Source of the DNA: an uncultured delta proteobacterium
Lineage (GTDB): Bacteria > Desulfobacterota > Binatia > UBA9968
Direction: 5' to 3'
Assembly (NCBI GenBank): GCA_963745835.1
Contig: CAVUZH010000020.1
Coordinates: 32,001 to 96,000, forward strand
Length of the DNA stretch: 64,000 bases
Positions 12,284 to 52,950 of the stretch are shown piece after piece. Each line of letters opens with the position of its first letter. The first letter of the stretch is position 1. The notes below the pieces were generated by a model. The model had not been told where the DNA came from and made no database searches. It saw only the letters and a program-made list of their open reading frames with translations. A program made the translations under genes and the position numbers.

Positions 12284-12449
12284 GTTGAGCCGTAGGTCGG
12301 ACCACCGCTACATCTCCGGAGTTTCAGGCAGTTAAAACACTTTGTGGCACGCCAACACCTGGCCAAGCTATTCTCAATCCGATTCTGAACGAGAACTCCG
12401 TCCACCTGGTCAACAGCGTCCCTGATCCTCTCTCGCTCCCGCCCAGTCG

Positions 12450-16427: not shown

Positions 16428-16428
16428 T

Positions 16429-16650: not shown

Positions 16651-16692
16651 AACAGCGCGGTCTAGGCTAAGTACTAAGTCAAGATTTGACCC

Positions 16693-21239: not shown

Positions 21240-21627
21240 GTAGACTTGCCTGACTCGACTAAGTCTTCTCCAAACGATTGGCTGATCTTCGAGGATCGGA
21301 ACCAAGAAACTTGCCACCCTGGGAAGAGAGATAACCCTGTTCAAACACCGCCTCGCGGATGTCCGATTGCAGGATGCGTGCTGTCGGGCAGCGATCGACC
21401 TCCAATAAAAAGTGGAAGTGATTCGAGATCAAGACATAGGTGTCGAGAGAGATAGCGCTAGAGCACGGTCGGAAGCGCTTCGATGAAGGCCCAATAGTCA
21501 CTTTGCCTGATAAAAATCTTTGGCCTTCATGCACCAGGGCGTCACGTGATGACAACCTTTAACATAACTCGCGGGTGACGCGGCATCCCCAGCCTATAGG
21601 ATTAGTCGCCTAGGCAAGTCTGACGCC
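21240..21627 (-). pseudogene. Decayed, internally deleted Y1/RAYT-like transposase with residual inverted ends
   Basis: MPRHPRV start near 21586, YVLISNHFHFLLEV (HUH); AGACTTGCCT at 21242 vs AGGCAAGTCT at 21612. Confidence 0.7.
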
Positions 21628-21959
21628 GAGTTTCTTGCGTAAGCTAACTCATTTAGCAGTCTCGAATGGATTAAGTCAATCAATTGGCACAACTGAGTCG
21701 AACACATCGTCATTGATTTGCGCCACCCAATCGCCGATTTCACAATCCATGCCGCGAAGGGGCAACAATGGACCACGGCGCTAAATCAGCTTAATTCGTT
21801 GGCGCCGGAAAAACGACGATGAATACATCCGCATGATAACGTCGCTTCATACGGCGAATTCTCGGTAAGAAAGCAAAAGTAAAGACGCGACCCTACGCCG
21901 GCGCTCACGTCTGCGTCAGAACGCGTTTCTTTACTTCAGTAACGAATCATTCGGGATTA

Positions 21960-22226
21960 CCCAGGCAGAATGCCTGACGTTAAAAGAGATCGAATGGCGT
22001 TGACTACTTAAAACGAGGAAGTACCCCAACACCAGGCGCTCGTCGTGCGAGTTATTGAATCGATACAGCGGGCTTAAGCAACGGATGATCGGTGAGCGGT
22101 TCGGCGGGTAGGATGAGGGGTTGGCGCGGTCGCAGACGAGACGGGAAAGGATCGAGCCGGAACCGAAGATCCGAAAGTGGTTTCAGGATCTCTCGCGCTT
22201 AAGTACTTAAGTCAAGATTTGACCCC
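21960..22226 (+). pseudogene. C-terminal remnant plus right end of a Y1/RAYT-like element
   Basis: ELLNRYSGLKQRMIGERFGG matches ELMYRYSKISQEEIGKRFGG of 45545-46537; ends AAGATTTGACCCC 22214-22226. Confidence 0.72.
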
Positions 22227-33191: not shown

Positions 33192-34241
33192 GGGACGCTG
33201 TTGACTAACTGGACAAACTAGAATAGAGAGTGGAGAGAATCGATAAGGGCTACAGCGTATGCCGAGGCAGGCTAGACTGGATAGTCCCGGGACACTGCAC
33301 CATGTAATGATCCGAGGGATTGAAAAGAAGCGGATCGTCCTTGACGAGCAAGACCGAAAAGACTTTGTGCGCCGATTGGGTTTATTGGCCGTGGAAACGA
33401 AGACGGCGATCTATGCATGGGCGTTAATGAGCAACCATGCTCATTTGCTGGTTTGCAGCGGGACTGAGGGATTAGCCAAGTTTATGCGGCGATTTTTGAC
33501 CGGTTACGCGGTGAGTTATAACCTGCGCCATCGCCGGCATGGTCATCTTTTTCAGAACCGTTACAAATCGATGGTGTGCGACGGCGGCAGCTATTTCACC
33601 GAGCTGGTGCGCTACATCCACCTAAACCCGTTAAGAGTGGAGTTGGTAAAGGATTTGAGGCAACTGGAGAGATATCCCTATTGTGGACATGGAACAATCT
33701 TGGGAGCGCAATCAAACGCCTGGCAAGACCGCGACAGCGTGTTGGCCCAGTTTAGCCAACGCGAAGCGGAAGCGAAGGAGGCATACCGGCGCTATATTGC
33801 CGAAGGAGTCGTGCTGGGGCGGCGGCCGGAGCTGGTTGGGGGGAGTGGATCGGTTGGCGAATGGTTTGCGGTGAAATCCCAGCGGCGACGCAGGATTGAA
33901 GAGTCAACTGATGAGCGGATTTTGGGCAGCGGAGCATTTGTAAAGCGTGTTCTAAAAGAAGCAGATGCGCGGACACTCCGGCAAAACGCCTTCAAGAAAA
34001 CCAAACGCTATGCGGAGCGTGTCGTTGCCGCGGCCTGCAAGAAAGACGGCATATCGCTAACAGAACTCCGAAGCGGGAGCCGCCGTGGGAAACTGCCCGC
34101 CGTGAGAGTGAAGATCGTTCAGGGGCTTAGTGGAGGATTATGGCGTGCCCATCGCCGAGGTCGCTCGCCAAGTGGGTATCTCGACATCTGGAGTTTCAAA
34201 GATTCTGACACGAAGTTTGTCCAGCTAGTCAACAGCGTCCC
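33192..34241 (+). mobile_element. TIR-bounded Y1/RAYT-like element 1
   Basis: 28-bp TIR GGGACGCTGTTGACTA[A/G]CTGGACAAACT at 33192-33219 and 34214-34241; TA on both outer sides. Confidence 0.88.
33259..34228 (+). CDS. HUH Y1 (RAYT-like) transposase with C-terminal HTH; +1 frameshift near 34122
   Basis: HHVMIRG, MSNHAHLL, HLFQNRYKS, RYIHLNP; removing one G at 34122-34125 restores LVEDYGVPIAEVARQVGISTSGVSKIL..* with the stop inside the TIR. Confidence 0.88.
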
Positions 34242-34250
34242 TAGCTGCCG

Positions 34251-34638
34251 TACTCTTACCCGCTAAATTCACAGGCAAAAACTGGATCTATGCGCTATGC
34301 TTTGGGTCATGGCAGTCATGCGCGAGAGATCCGGCCACCACGAATCAGAACGCTTTTGAACATGGTCTAGCGGGAATCGCGCAACCCCGAGTAAACGGCG
34401 CACTGCCGAACGATTCGTTGCTCCTGAAATGTGAAATTATTGAATCGATTGGAACTGTCCTTTTGAGTGTTCCGACATTGAACCGTTGAACGCTTGAACG
34501 GTTTGAACCGATCGACGCGTGTTTGCGTCGGATTTTCCGCACGAAATCGCGATCGAAGACGCACTGCATGAGGTCAATGAAATTCTCGAACGGAAAAATA
34601 GAAACCTAAGCACAAAACCATGATATATCTGACCTACC
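34251..34638 (+). mobile_element. Composite module copy B
   Basis: ATTCACAGGCAAAA.CTGGATCTATGCGCTATGC, TTGAAC repeats, VFASDFPHEIAIEDALHEVNEILERK; ends ATCTGACCT. Confidence 0.75.
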
Positions 34639-34800
34639 GTTATGATCGAGAAGCCTCTATGAGCATAGGCCATGGGTTGAAACAATTTTTGCTGGCACTC
34701 CAGCAGAACAAATTACGCAAAACGAGACACGCGCCGACGGTTGAAAACAACGGCCAAGGTTGAGCTGGTTGCCAGTTAGGCGACAAGGAAGGCGATAGTA

Positions 34801-35967
34801 ATGCTTGATGGTTACCAAATATTCGATGCCGATGCGCACACGATGATGAGCCCTAGGATGTGGGCCGACTTGCCTGAAGATTTCGCCGCTCGTCGACCCC
34901 GCGCGGTGCGGATTTCCGACGAAAGCGGACTCGGGTATTGGAACACGGGTTGGTATGTGGATGGTCGATTGGAGCCGCATCCGTTTGGACCAGGAGCCCA
35001 GTCTGCCAATACGCCTGCCATGGTACTGGATGAATTCAAACCGGAACCGGGGAAACCTCGCGCAATGATCGGCTCCACTGATTTCGCGGTACCCGCGGCG
35101 AGCCTCGATCTATCGGACCCGGAAGCACGGTTGCAAAATCTTGAGCGCATGGCGGTGGACATTCAGATGCTTTTCCCATCCACTCTCTATGCTCATATGA
35201 CTTCCGATCCCCGCCTCGATGCGGCTCTCTGTCGTTCGTACAATCGCTATGTCGGCGGTCAATGTCGGTCGGCGCCCAAACGGCTCAAATGGGCCGGGCT
35301 CCTGCCGATGCGCGATCAAGGCGAGGCCATCAAGGCTCTGGACGAGATGCAACATCTAGGGGCGAGCGCCGCGGTGGTATTCGGAACGGTCGGAGAACGG
35401 CTCCTCTCCGACCCGACTTTTACACCCATATGGGACGAATTCGCGCGCAGAACGCTGCCACTTTGCATACACATGGGTATGAGCTATCCGCCGTTTCAGG
35501 ACCTCTGCCATTCAATTCAGGACGCCAATATGATCGCCAAGGCACTGCCCGCGCAGCTCGCCTTTGTCGCCGTTGTCGGTAATAAGATGCTCGACCGCTA
35601 TCCGAGTCTCCGCGTCGCCTTTCTTGAATTCGGCGCCGAATGGATCTTTTACATGTTCGGCCGGATGGAGCATTACCTAAAGGTGAATCGCCGGCGTATG
35701 CCCAGCGCCGCGGCGCTGCCGCAAAAAGATGTCGAGGATTATGCCAAGTGCGGGAGAATTTTCATCGCTCCTGAGTCCGACGACGCCATGCTCGCTCAGG
35801 AGATCGCGCTGCTCGGCGCCAATCAGATTCTTTTCTCTTCGGACTTTCCGCACGGCGAAGGACGGGAAAACGCCGCCCGCGGTATCCTCGATCGCACCGA
35901 TCTCACCGCGGAACAGAAGCGCAAGATTCTTTACGACAATCCGGTCAATTTATTTGGATCGCCATAA
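34801..35967 (+). CDS. Amidohydrolase_2 family protein
   Basis: DADAH, LFPS, CIHMG, FLEFG, FSSDFPH. Confidence 0.9.
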   Translation: MLDGYQIFDADAHTMMSPRMWADLPEDFAARRPRAVRISDESGLGYWNTGWYVDGRLEPHPFGPGAQSANTPAMVLDEFKPEPGKPRAMIGSTDFAVPAASLDLSDPEARLQNLERMAVDIQMLFPSTLYAHMTSDPRLDAALCRSYNRYVGGQCRSAPKRLKWAGLLPMRDQGEAIKALDEMQHLGASAAVVFGTVGERLLSDPTFTPIWDEFARRTLPLCIHMGMSYPPFQDLCHSIQDANMIAKALPAQLAFVAVVGNKMLDRYPSLRVAFLEFGAEWIFYMFGRMEHYLKVNRRRMPSAAALPQKDVEDYAKCGRIFIAPESDDAMLAQEIALLGANQILFSSDFPHGEGRENAARGILDRTDLTAEQKRKILYDNPVNLFGSP

Positions 35968-35996
35968 TCTCGATGAAAACGGCCAAGGAGTCTTCC

Positions 35997-36974
35997 ATGA
36001 AGTGGTTTCGTCGATTTGCCTACTCTGCGGTCGTAACCTTCACGCTTCTTAGCGCGGGGCACACCGCATGGGCACGCACGGTCAAGGTCGGCATTCCTGG
36101 TCACAACGTTACGCAAGCAGCTTTCTATGTCGCCAAGGAGCGGGGCTGGTATCGGGATGAAGGTTTGGATGTCCAGCTGATCATGATGCCCGCGCCGGTG
36201 AGCAATTTGGCGTTGATCGCAGGCAACGTAGATTTCACTTCCGTTCCCACCGCAGCGATTACGGCTGCGTTGCGCGGCGCTCCGCTCCGGGTGCTCTTCA
36301 CAAGCTTCGATAAACCACTTTTCTGGCTCTACGCCAGGCCGGAGATCCGCGAGCTCAAGGAGCTGAAAGGCAGAAAGATCGGGACCAGCGGACTCGGCGC
36401 GGCGGAAACGCTGTTGCGTGAATTCCTTCAAAAGCACGGTTTTGACGTCAGCCGAGATATCACTTTATTGAACACGGGAGCGGATTCAGTTCGTTATGTT
36501 TCTGTTGTGGCGGGCTCGACCGATGCAACTGTGATTACGTTGCCGTGGAATTTTTCCGCCGAGGATGCAGGCCTGCGCAGTCTGGTTTCCTTTACGAAAG
36601 AGGACATGGTGCAGCTCACGGGAAGCGTGGTCGCCCGTGAAGGCATTCTGCGATCCGAACCCAGCGTGGTGGAAAAATTCATCGCCGCTACCATGCGCGG
36701 GCACTTGGCCCTGCGTGAAGATCGTACCGAAGCGATCGCCACGCTGACTCGCAACGTAAAAATTTCCGATGCTCTCGCCGCTAGAAGCTACGATGTGATT
36801 CGCCCGGCTTTGACGCTCGACGGTGGACTCAATGAAGAGTCTCAGCGGAAGGCTCTCGATCTAATTTTACAAGCGCAAAGCATCAAAGATGCGCCCCCGG
36901 CAGAGCGCTTCTTCGATTTTGCGATTCAAAGACGCGTGAGCGCCGATCTTAAGAAAAAAGGCTGGAAACCGTGA
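35997..36974 (+). CDS. NitT/TauT-type ABC substrate-binding protein
   Basis: VAKERGWYRDEGLDV, ELKGRKIG. Confidence 0.85.
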   Translation: MKWFRRFAYSAVVTFTLLSAGHTAWARTVKVGIPGHNVTQAAFYVAKERGWYRDEGLDVQLIMMPAPVSNLALIAGNVDFTSVPTAAITAALRGAPLRVLFTSFDKPLFWLYARPEIRELKELKGRKIGTSGLGAAETLLREFLQKHGFDVSRDITLLNTGADSVRYVSVVAGSTDATVITLPWNFSAEDAGLRSLVSFTKEDMVQLTGSVVAREGILRSEPSVVEKFIAATMRGHLALREDRTEAIATLTRNVKISDALAARSYDVIRPALTLDGGLNEESQRKALDLILQAQSIKDAPPAERFFDFAIQRRVSADLKKKGWKP

Positions 36975-37000
36975 AGATACCAACGGTGCAATCGACCGGC

Positions 37001-37214
37001 TCGCGATGGAAGACGCACTGCATGAGATCAATGAAATTCTCGAACGGAAAGATATTCAATGGTAAGCGCAAAGCCATGATACTCGGTGAAAACGCTAAGG
37101 GATTCTACAAACTCTAATGTGAGATTCCCGTTGCTCTGAAGATGCGAGCAGGGTGATTAAGAAAGCGCTATCACGGCCAAATAATTCTGTTGGTGCAACA
37201 CAAGACCCGACGCC
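37001..37214 (+). mobile_element. Composite module copy C
   Basis: AMEDALHEINEILERKD..ILGENAKGFYKL*; ends AAGACCCGACGCC; the module's upstream piece recurs at 37293-37340. Confidence 0.78.
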
Positions 37215-37367
37215 ATGGCTGTTTCCTCTCACTTTTGACCGTGAAAAGTTAGTAGAGTTGGGCAAGTCTGACACGGGGGCGTTCTCCTTCTCGAGGAGTC
37301 TGTTGGAGAACCGTGAATTGATCTAGCGAGCGGGCACGGCATTCACCGATTGACCGAGGGCGAATGC

Positions 37368-37391
37368 TGCTGTACAGTTAGATGTACAGCA
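37368..37391. promoter_or_regulatory. Probable TA operator palindrome
   Basis: TGCTGTACA-gttaga-TGTACAGCA just upstream of the antitoxin RBS. Confidence 0.6.
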
Positions 37392-37398
37392 AAAGGAG

Positions 37399-37704
37399 GT
37401 GGGTTTGAAGCAATTATCGCTAACCGAAGCGCGCGCCAAATTGAGTAGCCTGGTGGCGGAAGTCGACAAGGGAAATGGGCCCATCGCGATTGCGCAGCGG
37501 TCGAAGGTCAAGGCACTGCTCGTCGATCCCGAATGGCATGGCCGGGTAGAGGAAGAACTCGCCCACTACCGAACTCGCTCGAGGCAATCGCCGTTAAAAC
37601 TGCGGGGCAGCATGACATTGACGGGAGACCTGGACGAAGCTCTCCAGGATCTCAAGAAAGAAAGAGAGCAGTCCCTCCAGGGCGTCATTGCCGCGCTCAA
37701 GTGA
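37399..37704 (+). CDS. Phd/YefM family antitoxin
   Basis: SLTEARAKLSSLV..PIAI; GTGA overlap with the PIN gene. Confidence 0.82.
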   Translation: MGLKQLSLTEARAKLSSLVAEVDKGNGPIAIAQRSKVKALLVDPEWHGRVEEELAHYRTRSRQSPLKLRGSMTLTGDLDEALQDLKKEREQSLQGVIAALK

Positions 37705-38102
37705 TTTACGTTACCGATATGCACCCGCTGGTTTTCTGGTCATCAAATCGTAGACGGCGGTTGGGAAACCGCGCACGGCGTATCTTGCAAGAGACGGAGC
37801 AGGGCAAACACTCCATCATCGTGCCGATTGTCGTTCTGGAAGAAATCAACCGGCTGGTGGAAAGAAAAATCGTTCGCTTGGAGGTTCCGTTTCGTCGCTG
37901 GGCCGAAGAGCTTGAACGCTCGCCCAACTTTCAAGTCCAGGCTTATACGTTGGAAGTTTTGCTGCAATCGGTCTCGCTCGCGGCAATCCGCGACCCGGCG
38001 GATAGAGCCATCGTCGCAACAGCCCGCCAGCTCCGCTGCCCGCTCATCACCGCCGATGACCTTATTCGAGACGGTGAGTGGGTCGATACGGTTTGGGACT
38101 GA
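37701..38102 (+). CDS. VapC/PIN toxin
   Basis: YVTDMH, VLEEI, DPADRAIVATA, LITAD. Confidence 0.85.
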   Translation: MIYVTDMHPLVFWSSNRRRRLGNRARRILQETEQGKHSIIVPIVVLEEINRLVERKIVRLEVPFRRWAEELERSPNFQVQAYTLEVLLQSVSLAAIRDPADRAIVATARQLRCPLITADDLIRDGEWVDTVWD

Positions 38103-38150
38103 CCGCCGCGAGATTATTCTCTTGCATCGATAGAACGGTCCGGAGAGGTC

Positions 38151-38392
38151 CGTGTTTGGGTCCGAGTTCCCGCACGAAACGCGATGGAGACGCATTGCAT
38201 GAGATCAATGAAATTCTCGAACGAAAAAATGTCAAGGATAGGCACAAAGCCATGATACTCAGAGACAACGCCAAGAGATTCTACAACCTCTAGTGTGAGA
38301 TCCTCCCTGTTGCACTGAATATGCGAGCGGAGCGAGTAAGAAACTATTGGGAGGCGTCAAAAGTTCTGTTGTCGTAATGCAAGACCTCACCC
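38151..38392 (+). mobile_element. Composite module copy D
   Basis: DALHEINEILERKNVKDRHKAMILRDNAKRFYNL*; ends AAGACCTCACCC. Confidence 0.8.
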
Positions 38393-38398
38393 TGCGGC

Positions 38399-38534
38399 TT
38401 GCCCGGCCGCGTGCTGGTAATGCTGCAACAGTTCGCCGGCGTCGCCTATCGCGGTAGTAGTCTCGCGTCTAATCGGGTTCACAATCGTGCATCGGGATCC
38501 CAAGGACCGAGCTTGAGCACCCGGGTCATGCACG
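38399..38534. repeat. Decayed gene fragment repeated at 12147-12283
   Basis: See 12147; begins just after the module D end. Confidence 0.75.
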
Positions 38535-38544
38535 GGGCTGAGAG

Positions 38545-38908
38545 AACCCTTAGTCTTTTTCCATCGACCGTTTCCTTGGTAGAAGGATCGTGGCTCAAGC
38601 CCTACGCGCAGTCAGTTAGACTGTCGAGCTTCACGTCGAGCACTTTGCTCCGGACGCTAAAGACGAAGTTTGGCTGACTGAAGTCGGGAGCCGTGGTTGC
38701 AGATCGTATCCGCTACAGAGTCACTGAACGAACGGCGCTCGCATCCGGGAGAGTCAGGGCTTTTGTGCTGACTTCAAGCCAACTGCTAGGGGCCGAAATG
38801 GCTACTGGCTTTGTAAAAGCACTTCCACGGATGAAGCGGCTTATCGCCAACCACACTCCTCCATTCATTGGCCGGGTTTCAAGAAATGGGAAAGTCTCAC
38901 TGTTGTGA
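38545..38908 (+). pseudogene. PIN-like (VapC45/DUF5615-type) toxin remnant
   Basis: IDRFLGRRIVAQALR*..HFAPDAKDEVWL / RIRYR..E..RAFVLTS..PPFIGRV with a stop and a frameshift. Confidence 0.6.
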
Positions 38909-39060
38909 GCCGTCGCCGAAATCGTCAAGAGGAATACGCTCGTATAAGCACCCGCTGGGACATAAGCGAGAATTTCATACTGCGAGATTGACTTGCCATC
39001 GGTAAGTTTCTCCCCTCTTCGTGCGAATGCCTTGACCATAGCCGGCCGGTACAGTACTTT

Positions 39061-39086
39061 AAGTAGACCAGAATTTTGGTCTACTT
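39061..39086. promoter_or_regulatory. Probable TA operator palindrome
   Basis: AAGTAGACCA-gaattt-TGGTCTACTT perfect 10-bp IR before the RBS. Confidence 0.65.
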
Positions 39087-39099
39087 GGAGGATGCGAGC

Positions 39100-39393
39100 A
39101 TGTCCAAAACAATGCCCATTTCAGAGGTTAAGACACGGTTGCCTGAGCTCGTCTCCGGCGTCGAGGAGCGGGAAGAAGAGATCGTCGTCACGCGTAACGG
39201 TAAGCCTGCGGCTGTATTGGTGAATTACAACGAGTACGAGCGCTTGAAAGCCACGCTGGATGTTTTGAGCGATCCGGTATCAATGAGGCAGATCGCTCAG
39301 AGTAAGAGCTTCTACGCTAAAGGGCGAGAAGGAGAATCCTTCGAAGCTGTGTTTGGCGATTCTCTGGTTACGCGTAAACGTCTAAAGAAATAA
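39100..39393 (+). CDS. Phd/YefM family antitoxin
   Basis: ISEVKTRLPELV..IVVTRNGKPAAVLV..EYERL. Confidence 0.88.
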   Translation: MSKTMPISEVKTRLPELVSGVEEREEEIVVTRNGKPAAVLVNYNEYERLKATLDVLSDPVSMRQIAQSKSFYAKGREGESFEAVFGDSLVTRKRLKK

Positions 39394-39728
39394 TGGCCGT
39401 CTACCGGCCCGATATCCCACCGCACGTGGCGGAAATCATCCGCCACTTACCTCCGGAATTAAAGCAGCGCATCAAGCGAGCAATCCGATCTTTAAGCGCC
39501 GATCCGTCCGCGGGTGAGCCTCTTATCGCAGAACTATCTGGACTCTGGAGCTTCAAAGTCAGACGATTTCGCATCATTTACGAATTGCATCGTAAAGCGC
39601 GGGTTCTCAGGATCTTCGCCATCGGCCATCGGCGGGAGGTTTATGAGCAACTGGCGGACCGATTGCGCCAGGTCGAGAGAGCGGAAATAGTGTGTTTGCA
39701 ACGAAGAGATAAATTCTTGCGTGTGTGA
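39393..39728 (+). CDS. RelE/ParE family toxin
   Basis: DPSAGEPL..LSGLWSFKVRRFRIIYE..IGHRREVY; TAATG coupling. Confidence 0.87.
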   Translation: MAVYRPDIPPHVAEIIRHLPPELKQRIKRAIRSLSADPSAGEPLIAELSGLWSFKVRRFRIIYELHRKARVLRIFAIGHRREVYEQLADRLRQVERAEIVCLQRRDKFLRV

Positions 39729-39874
39729 GAGCGCCCGTGCTTGCCGGGCGCATTTGGATCAACAAAGGCAACTTTTCAACCCAACTCGAGCGAGCCCGCG
39801 ACCACTTGGACTTCGATTCTTTCTCATCGATGTCTTTTAGAATTCATCAACTCCAATTTGACGCTAAGCCCTCC

Positions 39875-40132
39875 TCACACACCTGGCCAGGCTGGACTGA
39901 TTTGACTCGAGAGGCGGTAATCTAGCGCGAGGACTGCAAAGCCTCTGTCCGCCAGCCAGGGTCCCCAACTCTGCTTTTGTGAACCACGCAGCCAAGCGCC
40001 ACCGTGTAAACAAAGCAGTGCCGGATGCATACCGCCACTCGCAGGCAGATAGACGTCGGCGCAAAGATCTCCCTGCGGCCCGCCACCGTAAGGCACATCG
40101 ACGCGGATTTGAACGCTGGTATTGTTGTTCAT
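39875..40132 (-). pseudogene. Truncated alpha/beta hydrolase (HGG esterase)
   Basis: ADVYLP, LHGGAW, LDYRLS, then premature end. Confidence 0.7.
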
Positions 40133-40144
40133 ATCACCGATATC

Positions 40145-41272
40145 TCAGGCGACTTTGTATTCCTTAATCGCATCCTCGTTTAACTCTAGACCGAGTCCAG
40201 GCTTTTCGGTGAGAGTGATCCAACCGTTCACCGGTTCCGGCACCTCCTTGTAGACGACGTTCCAGGTAAGCCAATTGGTGATGTGAACTTCGGCGCGCCA
40301 GCCATTGGGCACCGCGGCGTGCAAATGGACGTCGAAATGGTGACCGTTGCCGATGGGCAGGTTGAAGGCATGGGCCAGGGCGGCGGCTTTCATGCCCATG
40401 GTGAAACCGCCCACCACGAGCACATGGAAATTCAGGAAGTCTACCGAATCTTGCTTCACCAACTCGGCAAGCTTTGAAAGATTATCGTATTGACCGGCGG
40501 CAATCGGAATACTCGTCTGCTTGCGCAGCTGGGCCAGCAGATGTGGATCGTTATACACAATCGGCTCTTCGAACCACATCAGGTTATAGGGCTCGAGGCG
40601 CTTGCACCAGCGCACGGCGGCTTCGAGTTTCATTAGACAGTTGGCGTCTACCATCAACTCCGCCTTGTCGCCGACAGCCTCGCGCACCGCTCTAACTCTT
40701 GCTTCGTCTTCCGCTGGGTCGTCTTCGCGATGCTCGCCGCTGGCACCGGAGGGATCAGTGGCGCCGCGGATGTTCGATCGGCCGACCTGGATTTTGAGGC
40801 GTGTTTCGCCGCGGCCTGCCCAATATCTTGCCGCTTCCACCAATTCCTCGCGGCTGTAGGCGCGCAAACCGAAAGTAATGTAAGCCGGAACTGATTTCTG
40901 TGCGCCGCCGAGAAGACGCCAGACCGGCACTTTGTAAAACTTTCCCTTGATGTCCCAGAGCGCCACGTCGATGGCACTTACCGCGAAGTTCCAGACCCCG
41001 GCATGGGCGCGATTGTTGAATTTCCACAGCATCTGATGCATCAAGCGCTCGTGTTCCAGAGGCGTCTGGCCTTTCAAGAAGGGGACAAGGTCTTTGAGAA
41101 TGAAAGCCGCGGTGGCGGAATACATGGGGCCGGCGATCTGCGATAGGCCAATGATACCGTCATCAGTCGTGATTTTTAGTATGCGCGCTCCGGTTCGCAC
41201 GGGCTGTTTGAAGAGCGGCGGTGTAACTTGGATATTTTGCAGCTCGATAATTTCGATTTCGGCAATCTTCAA
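40145..41272 (-). CDS. Mandelate racemase/muconate lactonizing enzyme family
   Basis: SAIDVALWDIKGK, LMVDAN, WFEEP, EKPGLG; TTG start after AAGGAG. Confidence 0.9.
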   Translation of the reverse strand: MKIAEIEIIELQNIQVTPPLFKQPVRTGARILKITTDDGIIGLSQIAGPMYSATAAFILKDLVPFLKGQTPLEHERLMHQMLWKFNNRAHAGVWNFAVSAIDVALWDIKGKFYKVPVWRLLGGAQKSVPAYITFGLRAYSREELVEAARYWAGRGETRLKIQVGRSNIRGATDPSGASGEHREDDPAEDEARVRAVREAVGDKAELMVDANCLMKLEAAVRWCKRLEPYNLMWFEEPIVYNDPHLLAQLRKQTSIPIAAGQYDNLSKLAELVKQDSVDFLNFHVLVVGGFTMGMKAAALAHAFNLPIGNGHHFDVHLHAAVPNGWRAEVHITNWLTWNVVYKEVPEPVNGWITLTEKPGLGLELNEDAIKEYKVA

Positions 41273-41400
41273 GATTAGTCTCCTTCGGTCTTTGGGGGCT
41301 ACCATCGGAATTAACAGGTAGCGCGACGAGTAAGCAACAGGTATAAACGATCTTGATTAAAAGAGGAAAGCAGAGGATCAGGTATTAGAGATTTGACCCC

Positions 41401-41782
41401 ATCACCGCATTGCCATCACGCCTTCACGCGTTTCTTCCTGGAAATGTGCATCGACCAGGTGAGATTTATGGGAGGGCTCGTGCAACCGGATCGTTTGGGT
41501 ATCCGCATCCGCATTTGGGCCGAGGAAGAGATTCGACTCGGCCATCTTCCTGCGAAATCAGGAAATATTCTCGAAGCCGTGCTCTATCGCGGTGAGCTGC
41601 CGCGCGGTGAAATGGCGGCAATAGTCGGCACGGGAGACCGCCAAGCGCGCCGGATCATCTCAGCTCTGGTTGACAAGGGTGTATTGCAATCCGAAAGCGC
41701 GCGCGCGCCGCTGCGCCTCGCATTTCCAGCTGCGCTCGCGTCGCGCTGGATGCCGGGACTTTTCCCTGAAAGAATCGAATAA
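41401..41782 (+). pseudogene. C-terminal fragment of a Fic family protein
   Basis: FTRFFLEMCIDQVRFM..LYRGELPRG..RQARR..LRLAFP..WMPGLFP; begins at GAGATTTGACCCC 41388-41400. Confidence 0.72.
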
Positions 41783-41817
41783 GACTGGATAACGCCTTCC
41801 CTCGGTTTGCCGCTGCT

Positions 41818-42012
41818 GCGCACGAAATCGCGATGGAAGACGCATTGATTGAGATCGATAAAATTCTCGAACGAAAAGATTTCAACGATAAGCACGAAGC
41901 CATGATACTCGGGTAAAAGCGAAGAGATTCTACAAAGAAGCCAGCGGAGTGATTAAGAAAGCGTTGTCAGGAGGTCAAATAATTCTGATGTCGCAACGCG
42001 TCACCTGACCCC
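41818..42012 (+). mobile_element. Composite module copy E
   Basis: CACGAAATCGCGATGGAAGACGCATTG...GCGGAGTGATTAAGAAAGCG...GTCGCAACGC..ACCTGACCCC. Confidence 0.78.
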
Positions 42013-42213
42013 ATGTCTGCCTCGTCGACAGCGCAGGGCATTTATTTGCTCGGCTCCGGTGCATGGGGCGTCAAAGATATCCTTGCGGCGGAAAACGATC
42101 TGGGTGTTCCCGTGGTTAATCCGGTTGCCGCCCGGGTTTGGTGCGTGCAAAAGCTTTTGAGAGTCAGGAATTTGTTAAAGGGAGCGAGCCGATTACTGGA
42201 GGAATTACCTTAG
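42013..42213 (+). pseudogene. C-terminal fragment of an Asp/Glu racemase / maleate isomerase-like protein
   Basis: GIYLLGSG.W....ENDLGVPVV; starts right after TGACCCC. Confidence 0.55.
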
Positions 42214-42560
42214 AGAGCCTTGCAGTACCCGACCGAGCAGGAAACCGTGATCAGTCCGGTGAACAAACGACATGGCTGGTCAGTCAATAGAGCACAACAG
42301 CCGCATTCAACTCTTAGGGGCCTCACCATAACGGATACTGCTTGTTAGCCGAATGTTGCAGTACAAGACCTGGCCCCGCGTGACCTCTCCTAACCCCCGC
42401 TTTCACTGACACCCGACGCCTCTTTGGAACTGAGCGCCAATTCTATCGCAAAGCGGCGCTGCGCGAGGCGGTCACTGCAAAAAGCGTTTCACACACATGC
42501 TAAGTCATAGTACAAAGTATCCATATTATACTATTATTACTACACTGGGGAGGATAAACG

Positions 42561-43172
42561 ATGCTACGTCTATACGGCGCCGCGAGATCTCGTGCCGTGC
42601 GCACCTTGTGGATGCTCGGTGAGCTAGGACTGAACTACGACCACAAGGATTACCTGCCCCGCGCACCGGAGACGCGGACTCCGGAGTTTCGCGCGTTGAA
42701 TCCCAATGGCCGCGTACCGGTGATAGACGACGACGGCTTCGTGCTGTCGGAATCGATGGCGATCAATTTGTATCTCTCGAAGAAGTACGAGAGCCCGCTG
42801 TATCCGTCGGATCCCAGAAACGAGGCGCTTGCCTGGCAGTGGAGCCTATGGGAGACCGACCGGCTCGACCGTCAGATCGTGAACTACGTCAGGCATACCA
42901 CGGAGTTTCCGGAGGCCGAGCGCAAAAAGGAGATCGCCGAGGCCGCATGGCAGCAAGTGACGGAATCGTTCGATGTGCTGGAGGCTGCGCTCGCGAAAGC
43001 GGAGTGGCTTGCCGGCCCTGCATTTTCAGTCGGCGATCTCAACGTCGCCGCAGCGCTTTACCGTGCGTTGGCGATCGATACCAAGAAATGGCCACGCACG
43101 CAGGCCTGGCTCCACCGCTGCTGGGAGCGCCCGGCAGCGAAGCGGGCGCGCGCCATGCGCGAAGGCAAATAG
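42561..43172 (+). CDS. Glutathione S-transferase family
   Basis: SRAVRTLWML, LNPNGRVP, LSESMAINLYL, FSVGDL. Confidence 0.92.
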   Translation: MLRLYGAARSRAVRTLWMLGELGLNYDHKDYLPRAPETRTPEFRALNPNGRVPVIDDDGFVLSESMAINLYLSKKYESPLYPSDPRNEALAWQWSLWETDRLDRQIVNYVRHTTEFPEAERKKEIAEAAWQQVTESFDVLEAALAKAEWLAGPAFSVGDLNVAAALYRALAIDTKKWPRTQAWLHRCWERPAAKRARAMREGK

Positions 43173-43332
43173 AACTGGGGTAAGAGGCTTTTATATCAGC
43201 CCGGAGAGGGAGGTGCGGGTCGGACCAAGGCAAGTTCTTGATTTAGCGATGTAAGATAGCATAAAAGGCATCGGCTAAGCGCTTAGAAGGCCATTTTTGT
43301 GGCCGAAAGATAGCGCCTAAAGGGAACTTCCG

Positions 43333-44133
43333 ATGCCCCGAGCAAACCGCCACTTTCTTCCCGGTCATGTCTGGCATATAACCCACCGCTGTCATCAAAA
43401 GCAGTTCCTATTAAAGTTTCCCCGCGATCGTCGTTGTTATGTGTATTGGGTCTTTGAAGCCAAGAAGCGATTTGGTCTTTGCGTACTGAATTACATCGTG
43501 ACTTCTAACCACGTTCATCTTTTAGTGAAAGACACAGGTGGAAACGTTATCGCAGCCGAGCATGCAGTTCATCGCCGGTCGAACCGCGCAGGAGTACAAT
43601 CAGCGAAAGGACGCCACGGTGCATTCTGGGAAGACCATTATCATGCCACAGCCATCCAAGCTGACGAGCACCTGCATCGCTGTCTGGTCTAATCGACCTG
43701 AATATGGTTCGCGCAGGGGTAGTGAGCCATCCATGAAATGGGTGCACAGCGGTTACCGAGAGATTCAGAGACCTCCCAAGCGATACGCGATCATCGACCT
43801 CCGGGAATTAACGGGATTGTGCGGCTTTGCCGATTCGGGAGATTTTCAATTAGCGCATCGCCAGTGGGTGGAACAGACGCTTGAGCGCGGGCGCACAGTG
43901 CGTGAGGACCGCTGGTCGGAGGCCATTGCGGTCGGCAGTTTGGCATTTGTTGAGAGCGTCAAAAGTGAGCTAGCGGCAGAGCGATACATCGCGCAGTTGA
44001 GGAGAAAGACGGAGCCTATGCGTTGCGTGAACGGAGTGAGGCTTACAACGGAGATTTCGGCGGTGAAAGTGAGCCGCTAACGCTAGAAAACACGGTCTTA
44101 TGGAACGAAAACGCTGCAGCGGCAGAGACATAA
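43333..44133 (+). pseudogene. Frameshifted Y1/RAYT-like transposase
   Basis: WHITHRCH, TSNHVHLL, AFWEDHYHAT, *IDLNMVRAG, WSEAIAVGS across several frameshifts; left end GGGTCGGACCA 43217. Confidence 0.82.
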
Positions 44134-44363
44134 TTTTTCTCATCGCTGCGTCGCTAGGTACCCTTACCTACCCTTAATTAAATCCTCGCCACATGGCATG
44201 AGCTGCTTGGTATCTCCGAATCGCACGATTGTTGGGAGAATAGCCTATAGTTATCGTCGTGCGAACGATCCTCGCTGAAGAGTATGACAACCCGCGAAGA
44301 TTGACCCAGGTTGAATAACCTGCTCCACAAGACATGTAGAAGCCGTCGCTTACGCTTTGTCCA

Positions 44364-44661
44364 CTAACGCCGGGTGGCCATGATATAGAAGCCCCAACGA
44401 CGAAAAAATCGACTTTGACATGCAGGCATCCATTTCTGCGCAGCTGAACCCATGAATTGGTGGTATAACTCCGCTCTTATGGTATCAATACGCCAACGCT
44501 GATCGCCCTGGTACAATTGACCCGTCCCTGCGCCCAAACATTTCCCCATCAGAGGATACAAAATTAAACGCGTCTTGTTCTTGGTATCGGTAATTCTGAG
44601 CTAAAAGCTGCTCGCTGTTCAGCATCACCCCTACTAACACCAGCACTCGCAGTAAAATCAT
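44364..44661 (-). pseudogene. Probable frameshifted small secreted protein
   Basis: Signal-peptide ORF (ATG 44661 after GGAGG) overlapping a second ORF 44364-44561. Confidence 0.3.
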
Positions 44662-44684
44662 TTGTTGCCTCCACACTTTCTGTC

Positions 44685-45317
44685 TCAGCGCCCGTAAGGT
44701 TTAGGTGGAGCGTTAGGTGGAGGAGTAGGTTGAGGACGGGCGTTCGTGTTTTGATCGCGGTGCGTTCCTTTGTCACCATGCGGGGTGCCGTCATATCTAC
44801 CGCAGTCCTGGCCACGCTGAGGTTGACAGTCGGGCGTTATGAACGCGCCTCCGCTACTAGGTGGTATGCCAGGAACGCCTTTATAACCCGGTAGGTTCGG
44901 ATTCCCGCCTTCGACGCCAGGCAAGCCCGGCATGTTAAAGACCGCTCCCCCCCCCTGCTGCCCCTGCTGCTGATTCGCGGCTTGCATTTCCGCAAGAAGT
45001 TGCTTCCCTTGGGGGTGAGTAGCCATCGGGTGCCACCCTTGTTGGGTCAAAATATATAGGACTCCGCCGCGGTCGGCCACCCAGAAGCCGGTTTTCTGAT
45101 CTTGCATAGCCTGCCAAGGCACGTGGTAGTACCAGCTCCGTCCACTGCCGGTGCTGTAGCAGCCGACAAGCTGGTTTGTGCCTTGTTGATATATGCACTC
45201 GCCTTTCCTGTATTGCTGTGGCGTCCGTTGCTGTGGTTGGGCATCAGCACTCTCAGTCAGCGCGATGGCGAAAACAATCGCGAGACAGGCGACAACTACC
45301 CGGACTAATTTTTTCAT
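44685..45317 (-). CDS. Hypothetical secreted protein with Q/G/P-rich tail
   Basis: AAGGAG RBS, signal peptide MKKLVRVVVACLAIVFAIALTESADA. Confidence 0.65.
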   Translation of the reverse strand: MKKLVRVVVACLAIVFAIALTESADAQPQQRTPQQYRKGECIYQQGTNQLVGCYSTGSGRSWYYHVPWQAMQDQKTGFWVADRGGVLYILTQQGWHPMATHPQGKQLLAEMQAANQQQGQQGGGAVFNMPGLPGVEGGNPNLPGYKGVPGIPPSSGGAFITPDCQPQRGQDCGRYDGTPHGDKGTHRDQNTNARPQPTPPPNAPPKPYGR

Positions 45318-45380
45318 CTACTTTCTCCTTCAAGGTTAAACGCGGTGCTCAACGCTAGTCACATTCTCGAACAGATATCA

Positions 45381-45450
45381 AGAGACTGCCATCATCGGCC
45401 AGAGACTGCCATCATCGGCGAGAGACTGCCATCATCGGCCAGAGACTGCC
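45381..45450. repeat. 20-bp tandem repeat x3.5
   Basis: AGAGACTGCCATCATCGGC[C/G] x3 + AGAGACTGCC. Confidence 0.92.
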
Positions 45451-45492
45451 AGCAGTTGCCAGTCTTTCATCCCAATGAGAAAGCGCCCGAGG

Positions 45493-46540
45493 GGGTCAAA
45501 TCTTTACGTTTGTAATCCCGCCGTTTCGGTGTATAGGAAGCACCATGGCTCGGCCATTACGGATCGCCTATGCTCACGCCTTCTATCACGTAGGTTGCCG
45601 TGGTAACGATCGGAGAGAGATCTATAAGGACGATATCGATCGGACTGTCTTTTTGGAAAAGCTTCAGAGCTCGTTAGAAATCTATGGAGTTAAGCTTCAC
45701 GCCTACGTGCTCATGAGCAATCATTTTCATCTCATCATCGAGACGCCCAAGGCGAACCTGTCTGAATTCATGAGGCATTTCAATATTGCATACACCGGCG
45801 CCTATAACCGCCGGCATAAGCGAGTAGGGCATCTCTATCAGGGACGCTATAAAGCTATACTCGTGGACAAAGACAGCTATTTGTCGGAGCTGAGCCGTTA
45901 TGTGCACGTCAATCCTGTGAGGGTGGGCACGCAGAAGAGCAAAAGCCCTGATCAACAGCTTCGGCTATTGGAGAAATATCGCTGGAGTAGTTTGGCGGGA
46001 TACCTAGCATCCCATCAGAAACAAGCATGGGTTATTTACTACGCGGTGCTGGGCCAGTTTGGTGGTTCCAGGAGCAAGTACAGAGAGTTTGTCGCTGAGG
46101 CGATCCAGCAGGGATACGCCACGCCGTGGAAGGATCTCAAAGCGCAGGTTGTACTGGGCAGTGCTGAGTTTTTTACCAAAGTGAAAGCACGAGTCAGTCA
46201 TACCGGGTCGCGCCGTGAACAGCCGGCTATGAGGGCCTTTGAAGCAATCGATGCCGACGATGTGGTGAACCGGGTAAGCCGCTATTTGAAGGTCAAGGCG
46301 CAGGAATTAACAAAGAAACGGACACCTTACCGAGACTCCCGGTCGATTGCCATGGAGTTGATGTATCGTTATAGCAAGATCAGTCAGGAAGAGATCGGCA
46401 AGCGATTCGGTGGTCTCGATTACAGCGCGGTGAGTCGGGAGAGAAAGAGGCTAAGAGAGCGAATGCAAGTAGATCGAAACTTACGTGAGTCGGCGCAAGC
46501 AATCGATGCGATGCTTATCACAAAGGTAAAGATTTGACCC
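45493..46540 (+). mobile_element. TIR-bounded Y1/RAYT-like element 2
   Basis: 21-bp TIR GGGTCAAATCTTTAC[G/C]TTTGT at 45493-45513 and 46520-46540. Confidence 0.88.
45545..46537 (+). CDS. HUH Y1 (RAYT-like) transposase with C-terminal HTH, intact
   Basis: YHVGCRGN, MSNHFHLI, HLYQGRYKA, RYVHVNP, YRWSS, QEEIGKRFGGLDYSAVS; TGA lies in the TIR. Confidence 0.92.
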   Translation: MARPLRIAYAHAFYHVGCRGNDRREIYKDDIDRTVFLEKLQSSLEIYGVKLHAYVLMSNHFHLIIETPKANLSEFMRHFNIAYTGAYNRRHKRVGHLYQGRYKAILVDKDSYLSELSRYVHVNPVRVGTQKSKSPDQQLRLLEKYRWSSLAGYLASHQKQAWVIYYAVLGQFGGSRSKYREFVAEAIQQGYATPWKDLKAQVVLGSAEFFTKVKARVSHTGSRREQPAMRAFEAIDADDVVNRVSRYLKVKAQELTKKRTPYRDSRSIAMELMYRYSKISQEEIGKRFGGLDYSAVSRERKRLRERMQVDRNLRESAQAIDAMLITKVKI

Positions 46541-50312: not shown

Positions 50313-50600
50313 TTCCAGGGTCAGGTCTATCATCGCTGCACAAACACATGCGCCGGTTAACCATGCTCGCTTCCGAATCCCAATCTCAAACTCGATGATG
50401 CCGCGACCGCTGGTAATGCTGGCGCAGCAGATCTCTGCCGTAATCGTTGCCGTTGGGCGTCCGCACGATGACGTGAATATGATCTTTGTAATGCTCTTTG
50501 TATTGGGGAAAGGCCTGGCCGGCTTGATGATCGAACTCGACCAACAACACCGGGCTATGGATGCGGTAATAGAAAACGCTGTCTTCTTCCACGCCGCCGA
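50313..50600 (-). repeat. 288-bp direct duplicate of 52878-53165 (DUF3500 C-terminus + end motif)
   Basis: 286/288 identical by eye; starts TTCCAGGGTCAGGTCT. Confidence 0.92.
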
Positions 50601-52929: not shown

Positions 52930-52950
52930 GCTCGCTTCCGAATCCCAATC

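What the first reader, a model, noticed from the sequence alone, without database searches (positions are those of the whole stretch)
33192..46540. Y1/HUH (RAYT-like) transposase genes bounded by terminal inverted repeats that contain their own stop codons
Seen: element 1 (33192-34241) has a 28-bp TIR with 1 mismatch and TA on both outer sides. Element 2 (45493-46540) has a 21-bp TIR with 1 mismatch. Both are about 1.05 kb, and in both the transposase stop codon lies inside the right TIR. Two decayed relatives have comparable ends (GGGTCGGACCA 43217; GGCGTCAGACTT on the minus strand at 21616-21627). Established: IS200/IS605 TnpA uses subterminal hairpins rather than TIRs, and canonical RAYTs are largely sedentary beside REP palindromes. 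Inference: a mobile class of HUH element with TIR-defined ends (GGG[T/A]C-like termini) that may be poorly described; prior literature needs checking.
Basis: partly seen in the sequence, partly recalled or inferred. Interest (0 to 1): 0.85.

Follow-up and report, generated by a model that had tools for sequence, protein, structure and literature searches.

The report
Tyrosine-transposase elements with inverted-repeat ends
These are two members of a little-studied but already described class of small bacterial mobile elements, a single tyrosine-transposase gene framed by inverted repeats, and one of them shows clear signs of having jumped within its genome.

Summary
The inverted repeats are real and above chance. 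Both elements are TIRtrons: a Y1/HUH "TIRYT" gene with a C-terminal helix-turn-helix, bounded by TIRs that start GGG[A/T]C. The class was named by Di Nocera et al. 2013 and equated with TnpAY1 subclass 2.1 by Quentin et al. 2018, so it is not new.

Correction: the window copy of element 1 has a 1-nt insertion. Its ORF runs through the right TIR. Only the ancestral frame, intact in another genomic copy, stops inside it.

- Element 1 behaves like an insertion sequence. It has 3 full copies (~98% identical) in unrelated flanks, with homology ending exactly at the TIR tips. Two copies share the frameshift. There are also 2 internal-deletion derivatives that keep both TIRs.
- Among 76 testable homologous loci from many phyla, 49 have gene-specific TIRs above a 99% null. 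The stop codon lies in the right arm in 39 of 53 scorable pairs.
- No target duplication and no subterminal hairpins were found.
- 28 of 186 ends carry short tandem duplications spanning the flank/tip junction (0.24% at random positions). I found no report of this in print.

Mechanism is inferred, not shown. Verdict: new members of a known kind, moderate interest.

The parts
33192..34241 (+). Element 1: a 1050-bp TIRtron. It is a frameshifted (non-autonomous) copy of a multi-copy element.
   Evidence: blastn homology to the two other full copies runs 1-1050, exactly tip to tip. Flanks at each locus are unique.
33192..33219 (+). Element 1 left TIR (GGGACGCTGTTGAC...).
34214..34241 (+). Element 1 right TIR. 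It contains TAG 34226-34228, the stop codon of the ancestral frame.
33259..34266 (+). Element 1 TIRYT gene as it stands: 335 aa with Y1_Tnp at residues 15-121. A 1-nt insertion near 34127-34129 puts the C-terminal helix-turn-helix out of frame.
45493..46540 (+). Element 2: a 1048-bp TIRtron with an intact gene, single copy in this genome.
45493..45516 (+). Element 2 left TIR (GGGTCAAATCTTTAC...), 52 nt upstream of the ATG.
46517..46540 (+). Element 2 right TIR. The TGA inside the tip TGACCC is the gene's stop codon.
45545..46537 (+). Element 2 TIRYT gene, 330 aa: Y1_Tnp (13-121) plus Bac_DnaA_C (238-299).
43217..44080 (+). Decayed, frameshifted Y1 gene (ORFs 43333-43692 and 43538-44080) with a GGGTCGGACC motif 116 nt upstream. 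No right arm was found.
21262..21627 (-). Decayed Y1 N-terminal remnant (SNHFHFLL) with GGCGTCAGACTT about 60 nt upstream of its start.
   Evidence: The evidence is weak.
21902..22225 (+). Remnant of a TIRYT C-terminal helix-turn-helix region. It is 39% identical to element 2 residues 262-330, has internal stops, and ends ...VKI* in a right TIR tip (AAGATTTGACCC, 22210-22225).
16677..16692 (+). Solo right-end tip of the element 2 type (AGTCAAGATTTGACCC).
12383..12422 (+). Remnant right end of the element 1 type (...CACCTGGTCAACAGCGTCCC).

Best explanation
Both features are TIRtrons. Each is a compact element of about 1.05 kb made of one gene for a TIRYT, framed by terminal inverted repeats of 21-28 nt. 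A TIRYT is a RAYT-like Y1/HUH single-strand DNA nuclease-ligase with a C-terminal DnaA-domain-IV-like helix-turn-helix. The left arm lies about 50-65 nt upstream of the ATG. The coding region runs into the right arm.

Element 1 belongs to a multi-copy, insertion-sequence-like lineage in this genome. The window copy is a frameshifted, non-autonomous copy. It most likely moved using protein supplied by an intact copy, such as the one on contig C13. Element 2 is an intact single copy whose own mobility is not shown.

The mechanism below is inferred, not shown. The element moves without target duplication by Y1/HUH chemistry on single-stranded DNA. The two arms of one strand pair into a panhandle, making the element in effect a giant REPIN that carries its own transposase in the loop. 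The helix-turn-helix domain holds the double-stranded arm, and the HUH/Tyr centre cuts and rejoins at or just inside the conserved GGG(G)[T/A]C tip. The short tandem duplications that span the flank/tip junction at many ends are read as a by-product of a block to replication, or of a nick, about 6 nt into the tip.

The confidence given (0.8) is for the identity as TIRtrons and for the mobility of element 1. The panhandle route alone I would put near 0.4.
For: Protein identity:
- Pfam Y1_Tnp matches both genes (34.6 and 52.1 bits, cut-off 23). Bac_DnaA_C matches element 2 (34.9 bits, cut-off 31.5).
- HUH (N59 H60 F61 H62) and Y119-H121-N123-P124 are invariant in 16 aligned homologs.
- The AlphaFold model (mean pLDDT 71.3) best matches the REP-associated tyrosine transposase 4er8_A (E 1.3e-5, TM by target 0.64, rmsd 2.9). 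IS608 and ISDra2 TnpA follow. The C-terminal part matches DnaA domain IV, 1j1v_A (TM by target 0.86, rmsd 1.5).

TIRs.

Mobility of element 1:
- There are 3 full copies at 98% identity, with homology ending exactly at the tips and unique 300-bp flanks.
- The 1-nt insertion is shared by 2 of the 6 copies examined, at different loci.
- Deletion derivatives of 663 bp and 427 bp keep both TIRs, and there are 2 truncated copies.
- Contigs from soil and rhizosphere runs diverge from the window exactly at 33192 and 34241 into other flanks (table 7).
- In related genomes the element matches tip to tip at 70-77%, while isolated TIR matches are 96-100% identical.

Family trait:
- 49 of 76 testable loci have a flanking inverted repeat above the 99% null.
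- 53 of 76 have a GGGTCA...TGACCC pair with at least 15 of 24 identities. The stop codon lies in the right arm in 39 of those 53.

No target duplication: direct repeats of 4 nt or more across the junctions occur in 3 of 56 pairs, against 5.7% in the null.

No local hairpins at the four ends: z-scores are 0.47, -0.06, 0.00 and -0.14.

Panhandle is feasible: the ssDNA minimum-energy folds of the whole elements pair the arms (35 and 24 left-right pairs), with arm duplex energies of -38.8 and -27.5 kcal/mol.

Stutter: 28 of 186 ends, against 71 of 30000 random junctions.

Published class.
Against: - No empty site, circle junction or excision product was seen, so transposition is inferred from copy structure only.
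- No biochemical data exist for any TIRYT in the papers read.
- The panhandle fold follows automatically from any inverted repeat, so it is no independent evidence. TIRs that co-vary between the arms are equally expected if a protein binds double-stranded ends.
- Element 2 is single-copy here.
- Quentin et al. report a mean of 1.9 copies per genome at 49% identity for subclass 2.1. Many family members may therefore be sedentary.
- The NCBIfam REP_Tyr_transpos scores (56.2 and 66.5) are below the cut-off of 80.
- Element 1's tip (GGGACGC) matches GGGGWSAS at only 6 of 8 positions.
- Its C-terminal HTH matches Pfam only below threshold: HTH_24 at E 0.011 and HTH_23 at E 0.02.
Confidence: 0.8

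Rival explanations
1. The gene and its inverted repeats are a domesticated, sedentary RAYT-like module. Copies arise by segmental duplication or horizontal transfer, not by self-transposition.
For: Quentin et al. 2018 describe class 2 as low-copy, with low identity between copies, and note a lack of evidence for autonomous mobility. Element 2 is single-copy in this genome. Homologs are rare on plasmids: 4 of 72,556 records at E <= 1e-20.
Against: For element 1, homology between the three full copies stops exactly at the TIR tips and the 300-bp flanks are unrelated. Deletion derivatives keep both ends. A frameshifted copy occurs at two loci. Other flanks appear in independent metagenome contigs.
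Confidence: 0.1
2. The TIRs belong to an unrelated DDE-type element or MITE (for example IS630/Tc1-like, given the TA flanks) that happens to enclose a Y1 gene.
For: TA lies on both sides of 2 of 3 full copies of element 1.
Against: The third full copy and both deletion derivatives lack TA/TA. There is no target duplication across 56 family members. The same tip (GGGTCA invariant in 106 of 106 arms at positions 1-3 and 5) travels with the gene across many phyla, and the gene's stop codon lies in it. The element holds no second protein-sized ORF with a DDE match.
Confidence: 0.03
3. The element is mobile through TIRYT, but on double-stranded ends. The helix-turn-helix domain binds each duplex TIR and two or more protomers nick both strands, in the manner of a classical cut-or-copy IS. 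No single-stranded panhandle is involved.
For: The DnaA-domain-IV-like fold is a duplex-DNA binder. The TIRs are gene-specific along their whole length, as for protein-bound IS ends. Local hairpins are absent.
Against: Solved Y1 relatives (4er8, IS608, ISDra2) act on single-stranded DNA; this is established knowledge, with the fold match. No target duplication is seen. One catalytic Tyr per protomer cannot by itself make a double-strand cut.
Confidence: 0.15

Closest known systems
TIRtrons / TIRYT (Di Nocera, De Gregorio and Rocco 2013, BMC Genomics 14:522, PMC3733652)
   Same: A RAYT-like Y1 gene is flanked by long TIRs instead of REPs. The tips fit or nearly fit GGGGWSAS. The arms lie at fixed distances from the gene and may overlap its 3' end (marked '3'ov' in their figure legends). 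The class is found in many phyla.
   Different: That paper lists single genes and, in a few species, families of solo TIR repeats. Here the whole gene-bearing unit is multi-copy with exact ends, has deletion derivatives, and includes a frameshifted copy at two loci. The solo tip motif is not enriched in this genome: 85 found against about 126 expected. Element 1's tip is GGGACG[C/T]TGTTGAC.
TnpAY1 subclass 2.1 (Quentin et al. 2018, PMC6006769), given there as Bertels et al. 2017 RAYT Group 1
   Same: The HuH motif is NH[YF]H-like and the Y motif is Y[IV]HLNP-like. Proteins are long, with a C-terminal Bac_DnaA_C or short HTH tail. No REP-like hairpins are present. Bertels et al. report Group 1 as the most IS-like true RAYT group, with 6.3% duplicates and 1.2% on plasmids.
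   Different: The reported mean is 1.9 copies per genome at 49% identity. Here there are 3 full copies at about 98%. I could not run their classifier, and the supplements are closed.
REPtron: RAYT / TnpAREP with REP or REPIN sequences (E. coli TnpAREP, PDB 4er8)
   Same: It gives the best structural match for the catalytic domain. The gene is framed by inverted copies of the sequence the enzyme presumably acts on. A REPIN is two inverted REPs that form a hairpin, which is the proposed analogy for the panhandle.
   Different: There is no GT[AG]G-tagged palindrome and no local hairpin. There are no hundreds of dispersed short repeats. These proteins have an extra helix-turn-helix domain. The NCBIfam equivalog score is below cut-off.
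IS200/IS605 family (IS608, ISDra2)
   Same: They share the Y1/HUH fold and the absence of target duplication.
   Different: IS200/IS605 elements have subterminal hairpins in direct orientation and no TIRs. Their TnpA is about 150 aa with a Y---Q motif and is often paired with TnpB. Here there are TIRs, 322-330-aa proteins with Y--(H)-NP, and no TnpB. NCBIfam transpos_IS200 scores 16.4 bits against a cut-off of 55.

Membership tests
TIRYT / TIRtron (Di Nocera 2013) | The protein is a RAYT-like Y1/HUH enzyme with an HUH motif and a catalytic Tyr. | tested here: met
   Pfam Y1_Tnp matches both genes above cut-off. H60/H62 and Y119 are invariant in 16 homologs. The top Foldseek hit is 4er8_A.
TIRYT / TIRtron (Di Nocera 2013) | The gene is flanked by long terminal inverted repeats rather than REP palindromes. 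| tested here: met
   The TIRs are 28 nt with 1 mismatch and 24 nt with 2 mismatches. No end folds better than its shuffles.
TIRYT / TIRtron (Di Nocera 2013) | The TIR tip fits GGGGWSAS. The paper says this holds for 'some' TIRs, so it is typical rather than strictly defining. | tested here: inconclusive
   Element 2's left tip, GGGGTCAA, matches at 7 of 8 positions. Element 1 matches at 6 of 8 as AGGGACGC (7 of 8 in the C5 copy, GGGGACGC). Other Y1 genes in this genome fit fully: GGGGACAG and GGGGTCAG.
TnpAY1 subclass 2.1 (Quentin 2018) | Key motifs: HuH is NHVH or NH[YF]H, and Y is YIELNP or Y[IV]HLNP. | tested here: met
   Element 2 has NHFH and YVHVNP. Element 1 has NHAH and YIHLNP (motifs from Table 1). 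These are near fits, each one residue off in one motif.
TnpAY1 subclass 2.1 (Quentin 2018) | A C-terminal HTH extension is present (Bac_DnaA_C, HTH_23 or HTH_28). | tested here: met
   Element 2 matches PF08299 at 34.9 bits against a cut-off of 31.5. PDB DnaA domain IV matches at E 4.3e-6 with the profile, and the fold TM by target is 0.86. In the intact copy of element 1, HTH_24 and HTH_23 match only below threshold. In the window copy this part is out of frame.
TnpAY1 subclass 2.1 (Quentin 2018) | Assignment by the authors' own clustering and HMMs. | not testable with these tools
Canonical RAYT / REPtron | The gene is flanked by GT[AG]G-tagged REP hairpins that are dispersed in many copies in the genome. 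| tested here: not met
   No hairpins are found. The tip motif is not enriched genome-wide. The NCBIfam equivalog NF047646 scores below cut-off.
IS200/IS605 | Subterminal hairpins without TIRs, and a short TnpA with a Y---Q motif. | tested here: not met
   The Y motif ends in NP. NF033573 scores 16.4 bits against a cut-off of 55.
DDE insertion sequences with TIRs | A DDE transposase and a regular target-site duplication. | tested here: not met
   The only domains found are Y1_Tnp and HTH. Direct repeats of 4 nt or more occur in 3 of 56 pairs, against 5.7% in the null.

The most novel reading that the evidence does not exclude
TIRtrons are a true and widespread insertion-sequence family that no report found in the library searches treats as one; IS catalogues themselves could not be consulted. 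6512 homologs at E <= 1e-10 were found in the protein collection. In this reading they transpose by Y1/HUH chemistry on a TIR-TIR panhandle instead of the local hairpins of IS200/IS605 and REPs. The junction-spanning stutter duplications mark the in vivo position of the nick or replication block. They occur at 15% of ends and most often copy exactly the first 6 nt, GGGTCA. That would give a sequence-only readout of the cleavage site of an uncharacterised transposase class.
Probability: 0.3. Interest if true: 0.6.

Novelty: new member of a known kind. Interest (0 to 1): 0.4.

Why it matters
TIRYT genes are numerous: 6512 relatives at E <= 1e-10. They are routinely annotated as 'REP-associated tyrosine transposase', although they have no REPs. 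No experiment on them was found in the papers read, and the main survey treats them as not demonstrably mobile.

This genome offers a clean natural case of whole-unit mobility. It has exact ends, one intact copy that is the likely protein donor, frameshifted copies that were probably mobilised in trans, and miniature derivatives. That makes a direct test practical and gives defined substrates for it.

The lack of target duplication and of local hairpins narrows the possible mechanisms. The stutter at the tips is a new clue to where the enzyme or the replisome stops.

For annotation, the practical gain is a rule for element boundaries: GGG(G)TCA...TGACCC(C), about 0.9-1.2 kb apart, with the stop codon in or just before the right tip.

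Tried and rejected
Empty sites. I searched 40 related genomes with the element 1 locus plus flanks, and 5 same-genus genomes with the C13 and C5 loci. The flanks were either not found or ended short of the insertion point: G004 matches the left flank only up to 206 bp before the element. These genomes are fragmented, so this says nothing for or against mobility.

Copies in relatives. Only divergent or partial copies were found, and no near-identical pairs that would let me define ends in a second genome.

Reads. All four runs are Logan contigs. No joint skipped the element and no back-joint (circle) was listed. Contigs drop rare forms, so this is not evidence of absence.

PDB by sequence. Only the DnaA-like tail was found. 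The HUH domain needed the fold search.

Other searches:
- Rfam over the whole window returned nothing.
- Plasmids returned only 4 records.
- A genome-wide count of the tip motif showed no enrichment, so I dropped the idea of a dispersed solo-TIR (REP-like) family in this genome.
- A purine-rich (GGAA-type) flank preference for element 1 and a shared CATGT[T/C]CCC right flank were noticed by eye at several loci but were not tested statistically. I make no claim about them.
- A right-hand partner for the 43217 motif was sought and not found.

Supplements of PMC6006769 and PMC3733652 (lists of TIRYT genes, copy-number figures S12 and S13, alignments) could not be seen. They may already hold multi-copy cases.

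Full report
**What is in the sequence.**
- Element 1 (33192-34241, 1050 bp) has 28-nt arms with one mismatch. Counting the TA on each outer side gives 30 nt at 97%.
- Element 2 (45493-46540, 1048 bp) has arms of 24 nt at 92%, or 21 nt with one mismatch.
- As a control, the left flank of one homologous locus was paired with the right flank of another. Over 400 such pairs the best inverted-repeat score had mean 9.4 and a 99th percentile of 16. Element 1 scores 25-27 and element 2 scores 18.
- Each element holds one gene. In element 2, ATG 45545 to TGA 46535-46537 gives 330 aa, and the stop is the TGA of the tip TGACCC.
- In element 1 the ORF from 33259 does not stop in the TIR. It reads through to 34264-34266.
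- The other frame encodes ...GLVEDYGVPIAEVARQVGISTSGVSKILTRSLSS and stops at TAG 34226-34228 inside the arm.

**The frameshift in element 1.** Six genomic copies were compared at this point:
- The window copy and the full copy on contig C5 read CTTAGTG.
- Four other copies read CTAGTG or CTTGTG.
- So the window copy carries a 1-nt insertion. The copy at C13:630833-631880 is intact, at 322 aa with its stop in the TIR.

**What the genes are.**
- Both proteins match Pfam Y1_Tnp above cut-off. Element 2 also matches Bac_DnaA_C.
- NCBIfam's REP-associated tyrosine transposase model matches below its cut-off (56.2 and 66.5 bits against 80). The IS200 model hardly matches at all.
- In an alignment of element 2 with 15 homologs at 56-72% identity, N59-H60-F61-H62 and Y119/H121/N123/P124 are invariant.
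- An AlphaFold model from that alignment has mean pLDDT 71.3, with the C-terminal domain near 90.
- Its best PDB match is the E. coli REP-associated tyrosine transposase, 4er8_A. IS608 and ISDra2 TnpA follow. The C-terminal part superposes on DnaA domain IV (1j1v_A, TM by target 0.86, rmsd 1.5).
- By sequence, only the DnaA part is detectable in the PDB.
- The intact element 1 protein has only sub-threshold short-HTH matches: HTH_24 at E 0.011 and HTH_23 at E 0.02.

**Element 1 is multi-copy with exact ends.**
- The assembly is 7.28 Mb in 25 contigs, and the window is C20:32001-96000.
- Element 1 has three full copies, on C20, C5 and C13, at about 98% identity. blastn homology runs from base 1 to base 1050, tip to tip.
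- The 300-bp flanks of each copy match nothing at the other loci.
- There are two internal-deletion derivatives that keep both TIRs: C5:162438-163100 (663 bp) and C15:8370-8796 (427 bp). There are also two 5'-truncated copies.
- The 1-nt insertion is shared by two copies at different loci. The simplest reading is that an already defective copy moved, with protein supplied in trans.
- In four soil or rhizosphere runs from four studies, contigs leave the window sequence exactly at 33192 and exactly at 34241 into other flanks. One of these is the C5 flank. Contigs with the in-frame versions of the frameshift site occur in all four runs.
- In related genomes the element matches tip to tip at 70-77%, whereas isolated TIR matches are 96-100% identical. 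One of these genomes, G018, is unpublished.

**The architecture is a family trait.**
- The protein collection holds 6512 relatives of element 2 at E <= 1e-10 among 7539 candidates. Most are 325-330 aa and are named RayT or REP-associated tyrosine transposase by their sources.
- A scan of one genome per species found 586 stretches that encode a relative. The best 80 were kept, with 1.5-kb flanks. Four of these had flanks too short to test.
- Of the 76 testable loci, 49 have a flanking inverted repeat above the 99% null.
- 53 of the 76 have a GGGTCA...TGACCC pair with at least 15 of 24 identical positions. In 39 of these 53 the stop codon lies inside the 24-nt right arm. In 21 of the 53, by my reading of the rows, the stop is the TGA of the tip itself.
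- The left arm starts 43-102 nt upstream of the ATG in all but two of these, mostly 45-75 nt.
- Over 106 arms, positions 1-3 and 5 (GGG and C) and position 10 (C) are invariant. Position 4 is T in 105, position 6 is A in 104, and position 11 is T in 100.
- The hosts named in the records span Deltaproteobacteria, Nitrospirota, Verrucomicrobiota, Acidobacteriota, Gamma- and Betaproteobacteria and others.
- In the window's own genome, PF01797 finds 14 places, 12 of them above cut-off. Most are framed by inverted repeats that begin GGGGAC or GGGGTCAG.

**The literature.**
- Di Nocera et al. 2013 (PMC3733652; passages read) describe RAYT-like genes flanked by long TIRs. They name them TIRtrons and TIRYTs, give the tip consensus GGGGWSAS, and mark arms that overlap the gene's 3' end.
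- Quentin et al. 2018 (PMC6006769; passages and sections 17 and 20 read) place 20 of those 26 genes in TnpAY1 subclass 2.1. They note the Bac_DnaA_C, HTH_23 or HTH_28 tail and find no REP-like structures.
- Quentin et al. report a mean of 1.9 copies per genome at 49% identity, and write of an absence of evidence for autonomous mobility in class 2.
- Bertels et al. 2017 (PMC5581495; passages read) find their Group 1, which Quentin's table equates with subclass 2.1, to be the most IS-like of the true RAYT groups, with 6.3% duplicates.
- Three papers in the library hold the word TIRYT. Two further searches found nothing newer on the class.
- The class is therefore known. The elements here are new members.

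**Constraints on mechanism.**
- Across 56 family members, direct repeats of 4 nt or more at the two junctions occur in 3, against 5.7% in the shuffled-partner null.
- Among element 1 copies, TA/TA flanks only 2 of 3 full copies. There is no target duplication, which fits HUH chemistry and not a DDE enzyme.
- The four ends of the two window elements fold no better than their shuffles as single-stranded DNA. The local hairpins of IS200/IS605 and REPs are therefore absent.
- Folded whole as ssDNA, both elements pair their arms (35 and 24 left-right pairs), with arm duplex energies of -38.8 and -27.5 kcal/mol. This shows feasibility only, because any inverted repeat would do the same.
- My preferred model is inferred. 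It is a panhandle on single-stranded DNA, with the helix-turn-helix on the duplex arm and the HUH/Tyr centre acting at the tip, like a REPIN that carries its own enzyme.
- A double-stranded-end route cannot be excluded.

**An unexpected feature of the ends.**
- In 28 of 186 TIR ends (23 of 95 loci), the 60 nt outside the tip contain an exact copy of at least 5 nt of the adjacent flank followed by at least 4 nt of the tip.
- The same test gives 71 of 30000 at random junctions and 20 of 1394 at other GGG[AT]C sites.
- A simpler 7-mer test gave 37 of 187 against 131 of 20000.
- The copied piece of the tip is most often exactly 6 nt (12 of 28). Periods are 12-42 nt, and some ends have three iterations.
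- It occurs at both ends and in an isolate genome (L080).
- Two of the 28 hits come from the unpublished genomes G018 and G012.
- In this genome only the C13 copy of element 1 shows it, and the other copies have different flanks. The duplicated flank is therefore host DNA and the event is local to one insertion.
- I read this as slippage at a block, or a nick, about 6 nt into the tip. It remains unexplained, and I found no report of it.

**The window as a whole.** Besides the two elements, the window holds several relics:
- a frameshifted Y1 gene at 43333-44080 (Y1_Tnp at E 0.0014);
- an N-terminal remnant on the minus strand at 21262-21555;
- a C-terminal remnant with stops that ends in a tip at 22225;
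- a solo tip at 16677-16692;
- an element-1-like right end at 12403-12422.

**Verdict.**
- No empty site or circle was found, and nothing here shows the chemistry.

Noticed in passing
window 16181-16437, 34407-34625, 37001-37220, 38151-38402, 41819-42011: A repeat family of about 110-260 bp at 73-86% identity. It holds the last ~40 codons of an ORF (...ILGENAKRFYNL*) plus about 130 nt, and in at least three copies it ends in CAAGACCTGACCC, a TIRtron-type tip. No left tip was found. In all four metagenome runs, contigs break at 34517.
   Followed up: partly
G000:C13:681047-696034 (locus L019 covers part): Eight copies of GGGGACAGGCTACTTT lie in this stretch; inverted pairs about 734 bp apart frame 136-141-aa Y1 genes, recurring roughly every 3.3 kb. 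This looks like a tandem cluster of small TIRtron-like units.
   Followed up: partly
G000:C3:239826-241177 (locus L016): A relative of element 2 (61% aa identity) carries a tandem duplication of about 308 nt of its left end (TIR plus the first ~76 codons). This is a larger version of the junction stutter.
   Followed up: partly
G000:C15:8070-8110: A 40-nt repeat with 62 blastn-short hits across the genome. It bears no resemblance to the TIR tips, and its nature is unknown.
   Followed up: no
window 45400-45460: About three tandem copies of a 20-nt unit (CAGAGACTGCCATCATCGGC-like) lie 35-90 nt upstream of element 2's left tip.
   Followed up: no
window 50313-50600 and 52878-53165; 2540-3715 and 3847-5022: A 288-bp repeat at 99% identity and a 1.18-kb pair at 73% identity. 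Neither was examined.
   Followed up: no
right flanks of G000 C5:165135, C5:163101 and C18:509048, and of loci L034, L035 and L081: Several unrelated family members in different hosts have CATGT[T/C]CC just outside the right tip. By eye, element 1 flanks are often purine-rich (GGAA-type). This could be an extended end or a target preference. It was not tested statistically.
   Followed up: no
window 42561-43172: A glutathione S-transferase gene (GST_N and GST_C) lies between the repeat at 41819-42011 and the decayed Y1 gene.
   Followed up: yes
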